Numbered from the stretch's first letter, positions 1 through 8,861 are shown. The stretch is 8,873 nt of DNA from a virus (IMGVR_UViG_2663763220_000006), one strand, 5' to 3'. A program made the numbers and translations. The notes: generated by a model from the sequence alone, not told the origin.

Positions 1-42
1 CAGATGGCTGCTTAAAAAAAGAACAAATGGTAGTGTCCGCTA

Positions 43-366
43 TTGCCAGTACACCTCAAACTACTCATTGCCAGATGGGAACTGACCGCAGAACAGGCTG
101 TCGCACAGCAGTTAAAAAATCAGGTGTCAAAAGGAAATCTTATCGATACCGGATTTTGTATTTTTGCCCTTAGTAAGCTGGCGATGGCTTTATCCAGTAC
201 GCTTGACTCCATTCCTTTGTCCATGCAACGACAGTTCCCGGATTTAACGCCGCGTCATATTGATCATCTGAAAATCCTTATTGCTAAGGGAGCGAATCAG
301 TGCGCGCGTGCGGGGGATAAATTACCGGATTTACTCGATGAATATATCAGAACAACAACTGAGTAA
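43..366 (+). CDS. Nu1: Terminase small subunit (lambda Nu1-like), C-terminal ~107 codons only; upstream reading frame closed by in-frame stops at 13-15 and 31-33
   Basis: Translation (…RWELTAEQAVAQQLKNQVSKGNLIDTGFCIFALSKLAMALSSTLDSIPLSMQRQFPDLTPRHIDHLK…LLDEYI…) aligns with the recalled C-terminal half of lambda Nu1 (…RHRLTRAQADAQELKN…TAFCTFVLSRIAGEIASILDGLPLSVQRRFPELENRHVDFLK…LLSEYIEQSG). The stop at 364-366 overlaps the start of the downstream gpA-like gene, as in lambda. The first in-frame start is a TTG at 43; there is no convincing N-terminal region in any frame within the window. Confidence 0.7.
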   Translation: MPVHLKLLIARWELTAEQAVAQQLKNQVSKGNLIDTGFCIFALSKLAMALSSTLDSIPLSMQRQFPDLTPRHIDHLKILIAKGANQCARAGDKLPDLLDEYIRTTTE

Positions 367-2248
367 TATGATGGTGGCAGTCACTATCGCACTGCAGCCA
401 CTGGTCAGGGTATTGCCGGTGACGGCTGTAGAATGGGCCGATCAAAATTATTACCTGCCTAAAGAATCGTCATACGGTGAGGGGGAATGGAAAACGCTGC
501 AGTTTCAGGTCGCCATCATGAACTGCATGGGCAATGACGAGATTCGTACAGTTAACCTGATTAAATCTGCCCGTGTTGGTTATACAAAAATGGTGCTTGG
601 TGTGATCGGGTATTTTATTGAGCACAAATCCCGCAACACTCTTCTTTTTCAGCCGACGGACTCAGCTGCTGAAGATTTTATGAAGTCTCACGTGGAAGCA
701 ACAATTCGTGATGTTCCTTGCCTGAAAAAACTTTCTCCCTGGCTGGGCCGGAAACACCGGGATAATACGCTCACACTGAAGCGTTTTTCCTCTGGTGTGG
801 GGTTCTGGTGTTTGGGTGGTGCTGCTGCCAAAAACTACCGTGAAAAATCTGTCGATGTGGTCTGCTATGACGAACTCTCCTCGTTTGAACCGGATGTGGA
901 AAAAGAAGGTTCGCCAACACTGCTTGGCGATAAACGTATTGAAGGTTCGGTATGGCCAAAATCCATACGCGGTTCAACGCCAAAAATTAAAGGCTCCTGT
1001 CAGATTGAAAAAGCTGCGAATGAATCTGCGCATTTCATGCGGTTTTATGTCCCTTGCCCTCATTGCGGGGAGGAGCAGTATCTGAAGTTTGGCGATGATG
1101 CGACGTCGTTTGGCCTGAAATGGGAGAAGGGTAAACCGGAAACGGTGTATTACCTGTGTGAACATAATGGCTGCGTGATCCGTCAGTCTGAACTTGATCA
1201 GACCGGGGGGCGCTGGATTTGTGACAATACCGGGATGTGGACGTGTGACGGTCTGACGTTTTTCAGTGCTTCGGGTAATGAAATTCCGCCGCCGCGCTCC
1301 ATCACTTTCCATATATGGACGGCGTACAGTCCGTTCACCACCAGGGTACAGATAGTCTGTGACTGGCTGGATGCACTGAAAGATCCCAACGGCGTGAAAA
1401 CTTTTGTGAACACCACGCTGGGTGAGACCTGGGAAGAGGCCGTGGGCGAAAAACTCGATCACCAGGTACTGATGGATAAGGTTGTGCCTTACACGGCAAC
1501 GGTGCCTGTCCGGGTGGTTTATCTGACGGCGGGCATTGACTCGCAGCGAAACCGTTTTGAGATGTATGTCTGGGGGTGGGCTCCGGGAGAGGAAGCCTTT
1601 CTGGTGGATAAAATCATCATCATGGGACGTCCTGATGAGGAAGAGACGCTGTTACGTGTGGATGCGGCGATCAATAAAAAATACCGCCATGCAGACGGTA
1701 CCGAAATGACCATTTCCCGTGTCTGCTGGGATATCGGGGGGATCGATGGCGAAATCGTGTATCAGAGGTCAAAAAAACACGGTATTTTCCGGGTACTGCC
1801 GGTAAAAGGTGCCTCTGTCTATGGCAAGCCGGTGATCACCATGCCGAAAACCCGCAATCAGCGGGGTGTGTATCTGTGTGAGGTGGGGACGGATACCGCA
1901 AAAGAAATTCTCTATGCCCGAATGAAGGCCGATCCCACCCCTGTGAATGAGGCCACATCGTATGCCATCCGCTTTCCTGATAATCCGGAGATTTTTTCGC
2001 AGACAGAGGCACAACAACTGGTGGCGGAGGAACTGGTGGAAAAGTGGGAAAAAGGAAAGATGCGTCTGTTGTGGGATAACAAAAAGCGGCGTAACGAAGC
2101 GCTGGACTGCCTGGTGTATGCCTATGCGGCATTACGTGTGTCCGTGCAACGCTGGCAACTTGATCTGGCTGTGCAGTTGCATCCCGCAAGGATGCAACTG
2201 CACAACCGACCCTTGAAGAACTGGCAGCGAAGCTGTCCGGAGGAGTGA
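338..2248 (+). CDS. A: Terminase large subunit (lambda gpA-like; ATPase/translocase plus nuclease)
   Basis: ATG at 338 gives MNISEQQLSN…, matching the recalled lambda gpA N-terminus MNISNSQVN…. Long conserved blocks follow (TAVEWADxNYYLPKES, FWCLGG-AAKNYREKSVDV-YDEL, GDKRIEGSVWPKSIRGSTPK, CPHCGEEQYLKFGD, FVNTTLGETWE, YLTAGIDSQ, KKRRNEALDC). Length ~636 aa versus 641 in lambda. The start overlaps the Nu1-like stop. The C-terminal ~25 residues diverge (see finding). Confidence 0.93.
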   Translation: MNISEQQLSNMMVAVTIALQPLVRVLPVTAVEWADQNYYLPKESSYGEGEWKTLQFQVAIMNCMGNDEIRTVNLIKSARVGYTKMVLGVIGYFIEHKSRNTLLFQPTDSAAEDFMKSHVEATIRDVPCLKKLSPWLGRKHRDNTLTLKRFSSGVGFWCLGGAAAKNYREKSVDVVCYDELSSFEPDVEKEGSPTLLGDKRIEGSVWPKSIRGSTPKIKGSCQIEKAANESAHFMRFYVPCPHCGEEQYLKFGDDATSFGLKWEKGKPETVYYLCEHNGCVIRQSELDQTGGRWICDNTGMWTCDGLTFFSASGNEIPPPRSITFHIWTAYSPFTTRVQIVCDWLDALKDPNGVKTFVNTTLGETWEEAVGEKLDHQVLMDKVVPYTATVPVRVVYLTAGIDSQRNRFEMYVWGWAPGEEAFLVDKIIIMGRPDEEETLLRVDAAINKKYRHADGTEMTISRVCWDIGGIDGEIVYQRSKKHGIFRVLPVKGASVYGKPVITMPKTRNQRGVYLCEVGTDTAKEILYARMKADPTPVNEATSYAIRFPDNPEIFSQTEAQQLVAEELVEKWEKGKMRLLWDNKKRRNEALDCLVYAYAALRVSVQRWQLDLAVQLHPARMQLHNRPLKNWQRSCPEE

Positions 2249-2452
2249 ATGGTTACAGTCGCTGAACTGCAGGCGCTGCGTCAGGCGCGCCTTGATTTAT
2301 TAACCGGTAAACGGGTTGTGTCGGTACAGAAAGACGGTCGCAGGATCGAATATACGGCAGCGTCCCTGAATGAGCTTAACCGTGCGATCAACGATGCGGA
2401 GTCGGTTCTGGGTACGACCCGACGCCGCCGACCGCTGGGAGTGAGGTTATGA
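2249..2452 (+). CDS. W: Head-tail joining / head completion protein (lambda gpW-like)
   Basis: 67-aa product MVTVAELQALRQARLDLLTGKRVVSVQKDGRRIEYTAASLNEL… matches recalled lambda gpW (…[27 protein letters not shown]…). GGAGG Shine-Dalgarno at 2238-2242. The stop overlaps the portal ATG (ATGA). Confidence 0.88.
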   Translation: MVTVAELQALRQARLDLLTGKRVVSVQKDGRRIEYTAASLNELNRAINDAESVLGTTRRRRPLGVRL

Positions 2453-4042
2453 AACGAACGCCTGTCCTGATTGATGTGAACGGCGTTCCGCTTCGTGAGA
2501 GTCTCAGCTACAACGGAGGCGGCGCAGGATTTGGCGGGCAAATGGCAGAGTGGTTACCACCGGCGCAGAGTGCCGATGCGGCCCTGTTGCCTGCATTGCG
2601 TCTGGGGAATGCCCGGGCAGATGATCTGGTGCGCAATAACGGTATCGCGGCTAATGCGGTGGCCCTGCATAAGGATCATATCGTCGGGCACATGTTTCTT
2701 ATCAGCTACCGTCTGAACTGGCGTTGGCTGGGGATGCGGGAGACCACGGCAAAAAGTTTTGTCGGGGAGGTGGAAGCAGCCTGGTCGGAATACGCAGAAG
2801 GAATGTTTGGCGAGATCGACGTGGAAGGGAAACGCACGTTTACGGAATTTATCCGTGAAGGGGTGGGCGTGCATGCCTTTAACGGCGAAATCTTTGTGCA
2901 GCCGGTCTGGGATACGGAAACCACGCAGTTATTCCGTACGCGTTTTAAAGCCGTGAGTCCGAAACGGGTGGACACGCCAGGACACGGTATGGGGAACCAC
3001 TTTCTGCGGGCCGGGGTTGAGGTCGATCGGTATGGGCGGGCGATTGCGTACCATATCTGTGAGGATGATTTTCCGTTCTCTGGTGCCGGACGCTGGGAGC
3101 GGATCCCGCGTGAGCTTCCCACCGGGCGTCCGGCCATGCTGCATATTTTTGAGCCGGTGGAGGACGGGCAGACCCGTGGGGCTAATCAGTTTTACAGCGT
3201 AATGGAGCGGATGAAGATGCTGGACTCCCTGCAGGCCACGCAGCTTCAGTCGGCCATTGTGAAGGCGATGTATGCAGCCACAATCGAAAGTGAACTTGAT
3301 ACCGAAAAGGCATTTGAATATATCGCGGGGGCACCGCAAGGTCAGCAGGATAATCCGCTTATTAATATTCTGGAGAAGTTCACCCGCTGGTATGACACGA
3401 ATAACGTGACGCTGGGCGGTGTTAAAATTCCGCACCTTTTTTCCTGGCGATGCGCTGAACCTGCAGACAGCGCAGGATTCAGACAATGGATTTTCGGCGC
3501 TTGAACAGGCGCTGCTGCGGTATATTGCAGCCGGTCTTGGCGTTTCCTACGAACAGTTGTCCCGTGATTACTCGAAGGTCAGTTACTCAAGTGCCCGCGC
3601 CTCCGCCAATGAGTCGTGGCGCTATTTTATGGGGCGGCGAAAATTTATTGCGGCCCGGCTGGCCACGCAGATGTTTTCCTGCTGGCTGGAAGAGGCGCTT
3701 CTTCGGGGGATTATTCGTCCGCCACGGGCGCGTTTTGATTTTTACCAGGCGCGTTCAGCCTGGTCACGGGCAGAGTGGATTAGCTCCGGAAGAATGGCCA
3801 TTGACGGGCTCAAGGAGGTCCAGGAATCGGTGATGCGCATTGAGGCCGGACTGAGCACGTATGAGAAAGAACTGGCACTGATGGGCGAAGATTATCAGGA
3901 CATTTTCCGCCAGCAGGTCAGGGAATCCGCAGAGCGCGAAAAAGCCGGACTCTCACGTCCGGTGTGGATAGCCCAGGCGTATCAGCAGCAGATAGCGGAG
4001 AGTCGCAGGCCGGAAGAGGAGACAACATCACGTGAGACGTAA
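2449..4042 (+). pseudogene. B: Portal protein (lambda gpB-like) disrupted by a +1 frameshift at a T6 run (3437-3442); N-terminal part 2449..3504 and C-terminal part in the other frame to 4042
   Basis: The frame starting at 2449 matches recalled lambda gpB through …LGGVKIPHL (lambda …LGGAKVPHL), then reads 21 unrelated codons and stops at 3504. Similarity resumes in another frame immediately after the T-run (FFPGDALNLQTAQDSDNGFSALEQALLRYIAAGLGVSYEQLSR… versus lambda MPGDSLNLQTAQDTDNGYSVFEQSLLRYIAAGLGVSYEQLSR…) and continues to the stop at 4040-4042. The two parts total ~530 aa, close to lambda gpB at 533. Confidence 0.8.
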
Positions 4043-5595
4043 TCTTTCACATATTATCGCTGCGGCATTCAATGAGCCGCTGCTTCTGGAGCCCGCCTAT
4101 GCGCGGGTTTTCTTTTGCGCGCTCGGGCGTGAGATGGGCGCAGCAAGCCTTTCGGTACCGCAACAGCAGGTACAGCTTGACGCTCCCGGGATGCTGGCTG
4201 AAACGGACGAGTACATGGCCGGAGGCAAACGACCTGCCCGTGTTTACCGGGTGGTGAACGGTATTGCTGTACTGCCGGTGACCGGCACGCTGGTACACCG
4301 GCTGGGTGGCATGCGGCCATTTTCCGGAATGACTGGCTATGACGGCATTGTCGCCTGTCTTCAGCAGGCAATGGCGGACACTCAGGTACGGGGCGTACTG
4401 CTGGACATTGACAGTTCTGGCGGGCAGGCCACCGGCGCGTTTGACTGCGCTGACATGATTTACCGTCTCCGGCAGCTGAAGCCTGTCTGGGCACTGTGCA
4501 ATGACACGGCCTGTTCAGCCGCCATGTTACTGGCATCGGCCTGCTCCCGACGGCTGGTTACCCAGACATCCCGTATCGGCTCCATTGGGGTGATGATGGG
4601 CCATGTCAGCTATGCCGGTCATCTGGCACAGGCCGGTGTGGATATCACGCTGATTTACGCCGGATCGCACAAGGTGGATGGCAATCAGTTTGAATCCCTG
4701 CCAGCAAAGGTTCGCCAGGACATGCAGCAGCGCATTGATGCGGCGCGCCGGATGTTTGCTGAAAAAGTGGCGATGTATACCGGTTTATCTGTGGATGCGG
4801 TTATGGGAACAGAGGCCGCCGTTTTTGAAGGTCAGTCCGGTATTGAGGCCGAACTGGCGGATGAATTAATCAATGCGTCGGACGCCATCAGCGTGATGGC
4901 TGCGACGCTGAACACACACGATACAGGAGGCACTATGCCGCAATTAACTGCAACGGAGGCTGCCGCGCAGGAGAACCAGCGAGTGATGGGGATCCTGACG
5001 TGTCAGGAAGCGAAAGGACGTGAACAACTGGCCACGATGCTGGCAGGGCAACAGGGTATGAGCGTTGAGCAGGCCCGGGCGATTCTGGCCGTGGCGGCAC
5101 CGCAACAATCTGGTGTATCTGCGCAGAGTGAAGCCGATCGCATTATGGCATGTGAAGAGGCGAAAGGACGTGAACAACTGGCGGCAACGCTGGCGGCGAT
5201 GCCGGAGATGACGGTGGAAAAAGCCCGTCCGATTCTGGCTGCTTCACCGCAGGCGAATGCCGGACCCTCACTTCGTGATCAGATTATGGCCCTGGATGAG
5301 GCAAAAGGGGCAGAGGCGCAGGCTGAAAAACTGGCGGCCTGTCCGGGGATGACCGTGGAGAATGCCCGGGCTGTACTGGCGGGGGGCCCCGGNNNNNNNN
5401 NNNNNNNNNNNNNNNNNNNNNNNNNNNNNNNNNNNNNNNNNNNNNNNNNNNNNNNNNNNNNNNNNNNNNNNNNNNNNNNNNNNNNNNNNNNNNNNNNNNN
5501 NNNNNNNNNNNNNNNNNNNNNNNNNNNNNNNTGGCGTGCCACAGACGTCAGCAGACGGTGATGCGGACGTGAAAATGCTCATGGCCATGCCATGA
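4032..5595 (+). CDS. C: Prohead protease / minor capsid protein (lambda gpC-like, ClpP/S49-type fold) with C-terminal scaffold domain; interrupted by the assembly gap 5393-5531, so the 3' end and true length are uncertain
   Basis: Product …AAFNEPLLLEPAYARVFFCAL…NGIAVLPVTGTLV…SGMTGYDGI…GAFDCADMI…KPVWALCND…RRLVTQTSRIGSIGVMM…TLIYAGSHKVDGN…AYTGLSV…TEAAV… matches recalled lambda gpC nearly motif for motif. The only in-frame start after the upstream stop is a GTG at 4032, overlapping the portal stop. After the N gap the lambda-like C-terminus (…SADGDADVKMLMAMP, compare lambda …SDAVNDLLNTPV) is in a different frame and ends at 5593-5595; the continuing frame would stop at 5561. Confidence 0.8.
4935..5595 (+). 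CDS. Nu3: Nu3-like scaffolding protein, nested in-frame within the 3' third of the gpC-like gene (internal translation start)
   Basis: In-frame ATG at 4935 preceded by AGGAGG at 4925-4930 (4-nt spacer). The downstream sequence (…NQRVMGILTCQEAKGRE…) corresponds to the recalled lambda Nu3 region (…NSRIMGILNCEEAHGRE…). Lambda expresses Nu3 from an internal in-frame start in C. Exact start not verifiable; the 3' end is affected by the gap. Confidence 0.4.
4980..5392 (+). repeat. At least three degenerate tandem repeats (~138-150 nt, ~46-50 aa each) within the scaffold-coding region, abutting the assembly gap
   Basis: Identical 22-mer gcgaaaggacgtgaacaactgg at 5010-5031 and 5160-5181 (150-nt period). 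Protein-level units: MGILTCQEAKGREQLATMLAGQQGMSVEQARAILAVAAPQQ / IMACEEAKGREQLAATLAAMPEMTVEKARPILAASPQA / IMALDEAKGAEAQAEKLAACPGMTVENARAVLAGGP. The third unit runs directly into the Ns. Confidence 0.75.
5393..5531. other. Assembly gap (139 N)
   Basis: Uninterrupted run of n characters; the length is not a multiple of 3 and the coding frame differs on the two sides, so the gap size is probably an estimate or placeholder. Confidence 0.98.
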
Positions 5596-7514: not shown

Positions 7515-7892
7515 GTGGACGGTTTCGATAATCTGTTTGATGCTGCGCTTGCCGGTGTCAATGAAGTCATTCTCCGTGATATGGGGATCAGCGCCGTCAT
7601 TACGTCCGGAGAACTTGAGGGGACACACCTGACAGGGGTTTTTGATGATCCCGAAAGTATTTCTTTTGTTGCCGGGGGGATCCGGCTTGAGGATTCCTCA
7701 CCGTGCCTGTTTGTGAAAACGGCAGATATATCGCAGTTACGCCGTCAGGATACGTTAACTATCGGGGATGATTCTTTCTTTGTGGATCGTATTACTCCGG
7801 ATGACGGGGGATGCTGTTATATCCGGTTAAGGCGGGGCAGTCCTGCCCCACAGAATAATGCCAGAATGAGGCGATATGATGAAGGGACTTGA
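7515..7892 (+). CDS. FII: Head-tail joining protein FII (lambda gpFII-like)
   Basis: GTG start at 7515 with AGGAG at 7505-7509. Product (M)DGFDNLFDAA…GVFDDPESISF…LRRQDTLTIGDDSFFVDRITPDDGG… matches recalled lambda FII MADFDNLFDAA…GVFDDPENISY…LRRGDTLTIGEENFWVDRVSPDDGG…. Confidence 0.88.
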   Translation: MDGFDNLFDAALAGVNEVILRDMGISAVITSGELEGTHLTGVFDDPESISFVAGGIRLEDSSPCLFVKTADISQLRRQDTLTIGDDSFFVDRITPDDGGCCYIRLRRGSPAPQNNARMRRYDEGT

Positions 7893-8463: not shown

Positions 8464-8861
8464 ACCGACACACACAAATCCGTCAGAGCGTGCTGGCACG
8501 CCTTCGGGAACAGTGTGGAGACAGCGCCACGTTTTTTGACGGGCTTCCGGCATTTATTGATGCGCAGGAACTGCCCGCCGTGGCGGTGTGGCTGAGTGAT
8601 GCGCAGTACACCGGAAAAATGACGGATGAGGACGACTGGCAGGCTGTTCTGCATATTGCCGTTTTCGTCCGTGCACAGGCGCCGGATTCTGAGCTGGATA
8701 CGTGGATGGAGAACACCATATTTCCGGCCATGAAGGATATTCCGGTGCTTTCCGGACTCATCGACACCATGATCCCACTCGGTTTTAACTATCAACGTGA
8801 TAATGAGATGGCCACCTGGGCGATGGCGGAAATCACGTACCAGATCACGTACACGAATTAA
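8460..8861 (+). CDS. U: Tail terminator protein U (lambda gpU-like)
   Basis: 133-aa product with …ATFFDG-PA…PAVAV-L…YTG…W…LHI-VF…AQ-PDSELD-WME… matching recalled lambda gpU (…ATFFDGRPAVFDEADFPAVAVYLTGAEYTG…LHIEVFLPAQVPDSELDAWMES…). The ATG overlaps the Z stop (ATGA). Confidence 0.88.
   Translation: MNRHTQIRQSVLARLREQCGDSATFFDGLPAFIDAQELPAVAVWLSDAQYTGKMTDEDDWQAVLHIAVFVRAQAPDSELDTWMENTIFPAMKDIPVLSGLIDTMIPLGFNYQRDNEMATWAMAEITYQITYTN

What the first reader, a model, noticed from the sequence alone, without database searches (positions are those of the whole stretch)
3419..3504. Portal gene broken by a single-base expansion in a T6 homopolymer
The gpB-like portal reading frame changes exactly at tttttt (3437-3442). 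Upstream the frame starting at 2449 is lambda-like through …GGVKIPHL; downstream the lambda-like sequence (FFPGDALNLQTAQD…) is in the next frame. Removing one T would give one ~530-aa portal ORF (…PHLFPGDALNLQ…). A portal is essential for a functional phage, so this is either a homopolymer sequencing error in a draft assembly (an N gap lies nearby), an inactivating mutation marking a defective prophage, or a phase-variable tract. This is the clearest coding anomaly in the window.
Basis: partly seen in the sequence, partly recalled or inferred. Interest (0 to 1): 0.55.

Follow-up and report, generated by a model that had tools for sequence, protein, structure and literature searches.

The report
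Real portal pseudogene in Shigella prophage
The portal gene of a phage-21/lambda-like prophage really is broken by one extra T, but this is a genuine mutation shared by every Shigella flexneri genome examined, in a prophage that carries other lesions, so it is an ordinary, already-deposited pseudogene and not an assembly error or a switch.

Summary
A T6 run at 3437-3442 splits a lambda-gpB-type portal gene into ORFs 2449-3504 (351 aa) and 3419-4042 (207 aa). Deleting one T gives a 530-aa portal that aligns over its full length with lambda portal protein B (PDB 8k38, E 4e-213).

It is not a sequencing error. The exact 351-aa truncated product occurs on at least 1000 contigs (2587 index blocks). 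It is deposited from Shigella flexneri 2a 301 and from AE014073 (strain 2457T). All 22 distinct S. flexneri assemblies I fetched have T6. The nearest E. coli prophages (99.8-99.9 % identical) have T5 and an intact portal, and none of 5426 complete E. coli genomes has this allele with T6.

The prophage is multiply defective:
- An IS600 end (window 1-58) truncates the small terminase gene Nu1.
- The large terminase carries a second frameshift at 2172-2184. This is a quasipalindrome template-switch mutation, found in 15 of the 22 assemblies, so it is younger than the portal lesion.

Phase variation is not supported: exact T4, T7 and T8 products are absent. Programmed frameshifting is not supported: homologues have a single ORF.

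One loose end remains. An exact T5 version is deposited from S. flexneri on 19 contigs, and I could not inspect those contigs.

Verdict: ordinary prophage decay, low interest.

The parts
1..58 (+). Right end of an IS600 (IS3 family) copy. The transposase ORF ends at about window 15 and the terminal sequence ...CAGTACACCTCA ends at 58.
   Evidence: Window 1 corresponds to L004 7553. L004 6347-7620 is 99.2 % identical to an annotated 'IS3-like element IS600 family transposase' copy in E. coli. Homology to the intact E. coli prophage starts at window 58.
59..366 (+). 3' remnant of the small terminase gene (Nu1), about residues 68-169. The first ~67 codons are missing from the window.
   Evidence: The Pfam Phage_Nu1 match covers only profile positions 85-163 of 164. 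Window 58 aligns to L002 3609, 201 nt inside the intact 510-nt gene at L002 3408-3917. In this haplotype the stretch from Rz through the cos region to the 5' half of Nu1 is deleted.
338..2248 (+). Large terminase gene (gpA type), frameshifted near its 3' end. The last 30 ancestral residues are replaced by 24 unrelated ones. The ancestral stop would be at 2263-2265.
   Evidence: The window product is 636 aa, ending ...LDLAVQLHPARMQLHNRPLKNWQRSCPEE*. L002, L003 and phage 21 give 642 aa, ending ...LDLAVLAASRKDATAQPTLEELAAKLSGGVNGYSR*. The ancestral tail is still readable in another frame of the window. Pfam finds GpA_ATPase and GpA_nuclease.
2167..2207 (.). Inverted repeat created by the terminase lesion. 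The perfect 13-nt arms are 2172-2184 (TGCAGTTGCATCC) and 2190-2202 (GGATGCAACTGCA), with loop CGCAA. The ancestral left arm was TGCTGGCGGCATCC.
   Evidence: the repeat finder reports 18-nt arms at 94 % complementarity in the window, against only 6-nt arms in the ancestral-type L005. The arms were also compared directly. Three substitutions plus a 1-nt deletion turn the left arm into the exact complement of the right arm.
2249..2452 (+). gpW-type head-tail joining gene, intact (67 aa).
   Evidence: ORF list. Pfam gpW is recorded for the identical gene in the S. flexneri loci. It is annotated in L002 and L003.
2449..3504 (+). 5' part of the portal pseudogene. The ORF is 351 aa; residues 1-331 are portal sequence and the last 20 are out-of-frame.
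   Evidence: Translation. Pfam PF05136 profile positions 2-288 of 354. The exact product is deposited as AAN42336.1, AAP16213.1, ABF04804.1 and ADA73063.1, 'head-tail preconnector gp5 [Shigella flexneri]'.
3437..3442 (+). The T6 run. The ancestral state is T5 (CAC CTT TTT CCT = H L F P), and the extra T shifts the frame by +1.
   Evidence: The run is T5 in E. coli CFSAN029787 and FDAARGOS_943, T4 in phage 21, and T6 in 22 of 22 S. flexneri assemblies.
3443..4042 (+). 3' part of the portal pseudogene (199 codons plus the stop). The mechanical ORF begins at GTG 3419.
   Evidence: Translation. Pfam PF05136 profile positions 288-354. It aligns with lambda gpB from about residue 335 to 530. It is deposited as AAN42337.2 and AAP16214.1.
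4032..5561 (+). Head protease/scaffold gene (lambda C/Nu3 type, S49 peptidase). It overlaps the portal 3' end by 11 nt and contains the scaffold gap 5393-5531 (139 N). This is context, not part of the lesion.
   Evidence: The gap stands for 91 nt in the complete genomes. The 10 bases before it (5383-5392) disagree with those genomes.

Best explanation
The window comes from a defective lambdoid prophage of Shigella flexneri with a phage-21-type head module. Replication slippage added one T to a T5 run in the portal gene (codons His-Leu-Phe-Pro). That gave T6 and a +1 frameshift after residue 331. The product is a 351-aa fragment that lacks the last 199 residues of the portal, including the most conserved block shared with lambda gpB. 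A full-length portal can no longer be made, so no phage head can be assembled from this copy.

The mutation is real and appears fixed. It is shared by both haplotypes of this prophage in S. flexneri, so it arose before they diverged.

It is one step in ordinary prophage decay:
- An IS600 inserted into the small terminase gene Nu1. Both haplotypes share this.
- In the window's haplotype, the region from Rz through cos to the 5' half of Nu1 was then deleted.
- Also in that haplotype, a quasipalindrome template-switch mutation frameshifted the last 30 codons of the large terminase.

Shown: the lesion, its distribution, the T5 state in the nearest intact relatives, the other lesions, and their nested distribution.
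Inferred: slippage as the mutational mechanism, loss of portal function, and the order of events.
For: Sequence and frames:
- The T6 run and the two reading frames are as described.
- The nearest intact relatives are 99.8-99.9 % identical over the gene, occupy 1593 nt against 1594 here, have T5, and are annotated 'phage portal protein'.

Distribution:
- The exact 351-aa product is listed in 2587 index blocks. The sequences are named from S. flexneri 2a str. 301 and S. flexneri. AE014073.1 is S. flexneri 2a 2457T (table in PMC2790909).
- T6 is present in 22 of 22 distinct assemblies.
- No complete E. coli genome among 5426 has this allele with T6.

Other lesions and their order:
- The terminase lesion is in 15 of the 22 assemblies and the ancestral allele is in 7. 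All 22 carry T6, so the portal lesion is older.
- The IS600 end truncates Nu1. In L005-type genomes it is a simple insertion, and in the window's type a further deletion has occurred.

Identity of the gene:
- The repaired protein matches PF05136 across the whole profile and lambda portal protein B (8k38) at E 4e-213 over residues 5-527.
- The two ORFs split the Pfam profile at position 288.
Against: - The exact repaired (T5) protein is also deposited from S. flexneri (QBQ21922.1 / WP_134799197.1) on 19 contigs. Fixation is therefore not absolute. These may be ancestral-type strains, revertants, or homopolymer errors in those assemblies. I could not inspect them.
- Loss of function is inferred from the truncation and was not tested.
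- A very low level of +1 slippage on the U6 run could still yield traces of full-length protein.
- The other head genes in the window (C, D, E, FI, FII, Z, U) are still intact, so the decay is recent or incomplete.
Confidence: 0.96

Rival explanations
1. Homopolymer sequencing or assembly error in a draft genome. On this reading the true sequence is T5 and the portal is intact.
For: - The window is a scaffolded draft with a 139-N gap.
- The 10 bases at the gap edge (5383-5392) disagree with all complete genomes, so this assembly does contain local errors.
- A T5 version of the same allele exists in 19 S. flexneri contigs.
Against: - Identical T6 is present in 22 of 22 independent assemblies, including records of 4.4-4.7 Mb such as AE014073.1, CP000266.1, CP001383.1 and CP012735.1.
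- The exact truncated product is on at least 1000 contigs.
- Outside the gap edge, the window differs from L004, L006 and L011 by one synonymous SNP in 5382 nt.
Confidence: 0.01
2. Phase-variable (contingency) tract. On this reading, T-run length switches reversibly and turns portal production on and off.
For: - The frameshift lies in a mononucleotide run.
- Both T6 (common) and T5 (19 contigs) versions of the same S. flexneri allele are deposited.
Against: - The tract is invariant in the 22 assemblies read.
- Exact T4, T7 and T8 products are not in a collection of about 15 billion proteins.
- The run is short (6).
- The prophage also has an IS600-disrupted Nu1 gene and, in most strains, a frameshifted terminase. 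Switching the portal back on could therefore not restore phage production.
- E. coli relatives keep T5, or T4 in phage 21, with an intact gene.
Confidence: 0.02
3. Programmed recoding. On this reading, +1 ribosomal frameshifting or transcriptional slippage on the U6/T6 run yields a functional full-length portal from the split gene.
For: A +1 shift of tRNA-Phe from UUU (3439-3441) to UUU (3440-3442) would give exactly the ancestral ...PHLFPGD... sequence. This follows from reading the sequence.
Against: - The site is not conserved. Every homologue listed from the 1877 E. coli genomes with a match (40 rows shown) spans 1593 nt and is annotated as a portal gene, and the phage records listed over the full query also span 1593 nt.
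- Read directly from the sequence, there is no Shine-Dalgarno-like stimulator upstream (AAAATTCCGCACC), and the next zero-frame codon is UCC, which is not a stop codon.
- A run of six is short for appreciable transcriptional slippage (general knowledge).
- The lesion sits in a prophage with other knock-outs.
Confidence: 0.01

Closest known systems
Portal protein of phage 21 (gp4) and lambda gpB; Pfam PF05136 Phage_portal_2; solved lambda portal 8k38
   Same: The repaired 530-aa protein is colinear with lambda gpB (E 4e-213, residues 5-527) and covers the whole Pfam profile. At DNA level it is 93.5 % identical to the phage 21 portal gene. The gene order is the same: Nu1, A, W, portal, C/Nu3, D, E, FI, FII, Z, U.
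   Different: Here the gene is split by a +1 frameshift after residue 331, so it is a pseudogene and not a functional member.
Intact sister prophages in E. coli CFSAN029787, FDAARGOS_943, RMDEC364, VL46 and VL40
   Same: They are 99.8-99.9 % identical across the portal gene. The CFSAN029787 portal protein differs from the repaired window protein by one residue, G445 against S445.
   Different: They have T5 and an intact annotated portal. Nu1 and the large terminase are also intact in the two that I fetched.
The same locus in finished Shigella flexneri genomes (2a 301; AE014073 = 2457T; and CP000266, CP001383, CP012735)
   Same: They have an identical T6 and an identical 351-aa product. The window differs by one synonymous SNP over 5.4 kb from L004, L006 and L011.
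   Different: Nothing essential differs. The window is a draft copy with an N gap and a few wrong bases at the gap edge.
Quasipalindrome-associated template-switch mutations in E. coli (e.g. PMC7202029)
   Same: The second lesion, in the large terminase, is a cluster of three substitutions plus a 1-nt deletion. Together they convert an imperfect inverted repeat into a perfect one, which is the signature of this mechanism.
   Different: It was seen here as a natural mutation carried by 15 of 22 assemblies, not in a reporter assay. The mechanism is inferred from the sequence signature only.

Membership tests
Lambda-family phage portal protein (Pfam PF05136; lambda gpB / phage 21 gp4) | Match to the family profile above the curated cut-off | tested here: met
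   Scores were 326.5 bits for the repaired protein, 228.7 for the 5' ORF and 80.4 for the 3' ORF, against a cut-off of 32.9.
Lambda-family phage portal protein (Pfam PF05136; lambda gpB / phage 21 gp4) | Full-length colinearity with an experimentally solved portal | tested here: met
   The repaired protein matches 8k38 'Portal protein B' at E 4.4e-213, residues 5-527 against 7-530.
Lambda-family phage portal protein (Pfam PF05136; lambda gpB / phage 21 gp4) | Position in the head-gene order, between W and C/Nu3 | tested here: met
   The gene order matches annotated phage 21 and the E. coli prophages.
Lambda-family phage portal protein (Pfam PF05136; lambda gpB / phage 21 gp4) | One uninterrupted reading frame that encodes the whole protein | tested here: not met
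   The frame shifts at T6 (3437-3442). The two ORFs split the profile at position 288. It is a pseudogene derived from a member.
Defective (cryptic) prophage | Several independent inactivating lesions in genes essential for particle production | tested here: met
   The lesions are the portal frameshift, the Nu1 gene cut by IS600, the loss of the stretch containing the cos region in this haplotype, and the terminase C-terminal frameshift.
Defective (cryptic) prophage | No particle or plaque production on induction | not testable with these tools
   This needs mitomycin C induction of an S. flexneri strain.
Phase-variable contingency locus (homopolymer switch) | Tract length varies among closely related isolates | tested here: not met
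   All 22 assemblies have T6. Exact T4, T7 and T8 products are absent. T5 occurs on 19 contigs, against at least 1000 for T6. The exact-match look-up would miss variants that carry another substitution.
Phase-variable contingency locus (homopolymer switch) | Switching restores a working function | tested here: not met
   Nu1 is disrupted by IS600 in both haplotypes, so an intact portal alone could not restore packaging.
Programmed +1 ribosomal frameshift or transcriptional slippage site | The frameshift site and two-ORF arrangement are conserved among homologues | tested here: not met
   Homologues in E. coli genomes and in phages have a single 1593-nt ORF.
Programmed +1 ribosomal frameshift or transcriptional slippage site | Stimulatory elements are present (an upstream SD-like sequence; a stop or rare codon in the A site) | tested here: not met
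   This was read directly. The upstream sequence is AAAATTCCGCACC, and the zero-frame codon after UUU is UCC, which is not a stop codon. No frameshift assay was possible.
Quasipalindrome template-switch mutation (terminase lesion) | A cluster of changes that makes an imperfect inverted repeat perfect, with the other arm as the template | tested here: met
   The ancestral arm TGCTGGCGGCATCC became TGCAGTTGCATCC, the exact reverse complement of GGATGCAACTGCA at 2190-2202.

The most novel reading that the evidence does not exclude
The 351-aa N-terminal portal fragment might not be mere debris. It is kept unchanged across a very large number of S. flexneri isolates. It could act as a dominant-negative decoy that poisons portal-ring or prohead assembly of incoming lambdoid phages, which would be a form of prophage-encoded exclusion. 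A milder variant is that the T5/T6 run reverts occasionally (T5 on 19 S. flexneri contigs), so that an intact portal gene is available for recombination with superinfecting phages. Nothing here supports either reading beyond the fragment's conservation, and the clonal youth of S. flexneri explains that conservation by itself.
Probability: 0.02. Interest if true: 0.5.

Novelty: already known. Interest (0 to 1): 0.1.

Why it matters
It matters little. The result shows that this coding anomaly is a true lineage marker and not a draft artefact. It should be annotated as a pseudogene and not 'corrected'. Prophage-prediction tools that count a portal hit here could overrate the completeness of this S. 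flexneri prophage.

Two minor points have some practical value:
- The nested distribution of the two frameshifts (portal in all assemblies, terminase in a subset) gives simple markers for S. flexneri sublineages.
- The terminase lesion is a clean natural example of a quasipalindrome template-switch mutation.

Tried and rejected
1. Assembly error. I compared the window with complete E. coli genomes and at first found only T5, which could have suggested an error. The exact-protein look-up then showed T6 throughout S. flexneri, so I rejected this.
2. Phase variation. I looked up the exact products expected for T4, T5, T7 and T8. Only T5 exists, on 19 contigs.
Look-ups with the lineage-specific terminase and the Nu1-remnant proteins returned only T6 loci.
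4. Literature. Searches for a description of this pseudogene or prophage found nothing specific. The S. flexneri 301 genome paper is not held. PMC2790909 served only to confirm that AE014073.1 is strain 2457T.
5. Other homopolymer indels as a sign of poor sequence. The G6 at 7674-7679 differs from G5 in E. coli FDAARGOS_943, but there it is the E. coli copy that is annotated as frameshifted. The remaining indels against the E. coli relatives are an intergenic TT at about 5622, a frame-compensating pair at 5111/5117, and indels in divergent mosaic segments.
6. I recall that chromosomal ipaH effector genes of S. flexneri sit at the ends of lambdoid prophage remnants, and this prophage may be one of them. 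I could not walk far enough downstream to test this, so it is not used as evidence.

Full report
**1. The observation**

The window reads ...attccgcaccTTTTTTcctggcg..., with six T at 3437-3442.
- The ORF from ATG 2449 ends at 3504. It translates as a portal-like protein up to ...GGVKIPHLF and then runs into 20 unrelated residues.
- The next frame, open from 3419 to 4042, carries ...FFPGDALNLQTAQDSDNGFSALEQALLRYIAAGLGVSYEQL....
- Deleting one T fuses them into a 530-aa protein.
- Pfam's lambda-family portal profile (PF05136) is split between the two ORFs at profile position 288. The fused protein covers the whole profile at 326 bits.
- The fused protein aligns with the solved lambda portal protein B (8k38) over residues 5-527 at E 4e-213.

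**2. What the window is**

The window holds the head module of a phage-21-type lambdoid prophage. The gene order is Nu1 remnant, large terminase, W, portal, C/Nu3, D, E, FI, FII, Z, U.
- The portal region is 93.5 % identical to phage 21.
- It is 99.8-99.9 % identical to prophages in five complete E. coli genomes, where the gene occupies 1593 nt and is annotated as an intact portal.
- Base-by-base alignment shows that the only indel within the portal gene is the extra T, T6 against T5. Phage 21 has T4 at the same place, because its Phe codon is TTC.
- The ancestral state is therefore T5, and the window has a +1 expansion.

**3. Error or real**

No complete E. coli genome among 5426 carries this allele with T6. 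Taken alone, that could have suggested an assembly error. The exact-sequence look-up settles the matter.
- The 351-aa truncated product is listed in 2587 blocks of the collection, on at least 1000 contigs. It is deposited as AAN42336.1, AAP16213.1, ABF04804.1 and ADA73063.1. The names given are 'head-tail preconnector gp5' from Shigella flexneri and S. flexneri 2a str. 301.
- One carrier is AE014073.1, which is S. flexneri 2a 2457T (table in PMC2790909).
- I fetched this locus from 22 distinct assemblies, most of them chromosome-sized records of 4.4-4.7 Mb. All 22 have T6.
- Apart from the bases next to the gap, the window differs from L004, L006 and L011 by one synonymous, private SNP (position 1423) in 5382 nt.
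- From my own knowledge, strains 301 and 2457T were finished by Sanger sequencing, and the NCTC records are PacBio assemblies. The allele is therefore independent of platform.

The draft does contain errors: the ten bases before the gap (5383-5392) disagree with all complete genomes, and the gap length of 139 stands for 91 nt. The T6 is not one of those errors.

**4. Other lesions**

(a) IS600 in Nu1.
- Window 1-58 is the right end of an IS600 copy.
- Only residues ~68-169 of Nu1 remain.
- In L005-type genomes the IS600, later joined by further IS copies, sits inside Nu1 with both halves retained.
- In the window's haplotype (the 2457T type), everything from the 3' end of Rz through the cos region to the 5' half of Nu1 is gone.

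(b) A second frameshift, in the large terminase.
- At 2172-2184 the window has GTGCAGTTGCATCC, where all intact relatives have GTGCTGGCGGCATCC.
- The last 30 residues (LAASRKDATAQPTLEELAAKLSGGVNGYSR, conserved in phage 21) are replaced by 24 unrelated ones.
- From my own knowledge of lambda and phage 21 terminases, the extreme C-terminus of gpA is the prohead (portal) binding domain.
- The change is three substitutions plus a 1-nt deletion. It makes the left arm the exact reverse complement of GGATGCAACTGCA at 2190-2202, turning a 6-nt stem into a perfect 13-nt one.
- This is the signature of a quasipalindrome template-switch mutation (PMC7202029), so it is a single event.
- The allele is present in 15 of the 22 assemblies. 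The other 7 (including CP000266.1) keep the ancestral sequence, yet all 22 have T6. The portal frameshift is therefore the older lesion.

(c) One strain (CP178302) has a further break in the terminase gene.

**5. Mechanism**

The most likely history is as follows.
- A phage-21-like prophage became trapped in an ancestor of S. flexneri.
- Replication slippage in the T5 run produced T6 and truncated the portal after residue 331.
- IS600 disrupted Nu1.
- Later, in one sublineage, an IS-associated deletion removed the stretch containing cos, and a template-switch event frameshifted the terminase.

The truncated portal lacks the C-terminal 199 residues, including the block most conserved with lambda gpB. 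Loss of function is inferred, not shown.

**6. Rivals**

Phase variation is not supported.
- The tract is short and invariant in the genomes read.
- The exact T4, T7 and T8 products are absent.
- Reversion could not rescue a prophage whose Nu1 is disrupted.

Programmed +1 frameshifting would regenerate the ancestral peptide, through tRNA-Phe slipping from UUU to UUU. However:
- The site is absent from all homologues I saw.
- No stimulatory elements are visible in the sequence.

One loose end remains. The exact T5 (repaired) protein is also deposited from S. flexneri (QBQ21922.1 / WP_134799197.1) on 19 contigs.
- These could be ancestral-type strains, revertants, or homopolymer errors in those assemblies.
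- Two further look-ups with lineage-specific proteins returned only T6 loci.

**7. Comparison and novelty**

By every sequence test, the gene is a pseudogenised member of the lambda gpB / phage 21 portal family. The lesion has been present in public S. flexneri records as two adjacent ORFs, and no product is listed for this interval in several other S. flexneri genome records. I found no paper that discusses it specifically. It is nevertheless an ordinary case of prophage decay in a genome rich in insertion sequences.

**8. Verdict**

Interest is low (0.1) and the novelty rating is 'already known'.

Noticed in passing
window 2167-2207 (core 2172-2184 / 2190-2202): A second frameshift, in the large terminase gene. 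Three substitutions plus a 1-nt deletion turn an imperfect inverted repeat into a perfect 13-bp one, which is the quasipalindrome template-switch signature. The last 30 residues are replaced. It is present in 15 of 22 S. flexneri assemblies.
   Followed up: yes
window 1-58 and 59-366: The window starts inside an IS600 copy whose right end abuts codon ~68 of the small terminase gene Nu1. The listed ORF 43-366 (TTG start) is an artefact that begins inside the IS. In sister haplotypes both halves of Nu1 flank a nest of IS elements; here the 5' half and the cos region are deleted.
   Followed up: yes
window 5383-5531: The ten bases before the N gap (GGGGCCCCGG) disagree with all complete genomes (CAGCCTCAGG). 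This looks like a low-quality contig end. The 139-N gap stands for only 91 nt of real sequence inside the C/Nu3 gene.
   Followed up: partly
window 8576-8813 (gene U): A dense patch of 22 SNPs in 238 bp separates the window, L004, L006, L008 and L009 from 2457T (L011) and the L005-type genomes, which are otherwise nearly identical. It looks like a gene-conversion tract from another lambdoid prophage. It does not follow the terminase-allele split.
   Followed up: partly
window 7674-7679 (gene FII): There is a G6 run here where E. coli FDAARGOS_943 has G5. In this case the window's gene is intact (125 aa) and the E. coli copy is the one annotated as frameshifted (it also carries an IS4-family insertion).
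   Followed up: partly
window 1423: A single private difference (T, where all 21 other loci compared have C). It is in the third position of a Gly codon in the terminase gene, so it is synonymous. It is either a strain-specific SNP or a base-call error.
   Followed up: partly
P0047 (QBQ21922.1 / WP_134799197.1); not in the window: The exact T5 (repaired) 530-aa portal is deposited from S. flexneri on 19 contigs, the longest 4.66 Mb. These may be ancestral-type strains, revertants or homopolymer errors. The contigs could not be fetched.
   Followed up: partly
L009 / L029 (CP178302.1), locus L029 4596-6506: In this strain the terminase gene is further split, into 201-aa and 397-aa ORFs. This is an additional strain-specific lesion that shows continuing decay.
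   Followed up: no
L004 2321-3742 (WACK01000005.1), upstream of the window's region: A group II intron reverse transcriptase/maturase ORF (RVT_1 + GIIM) lies between the Q antiterminator gene and the holin gene in this strain's copy of the prophage. It is absent from the other loci.
   Followed up: no
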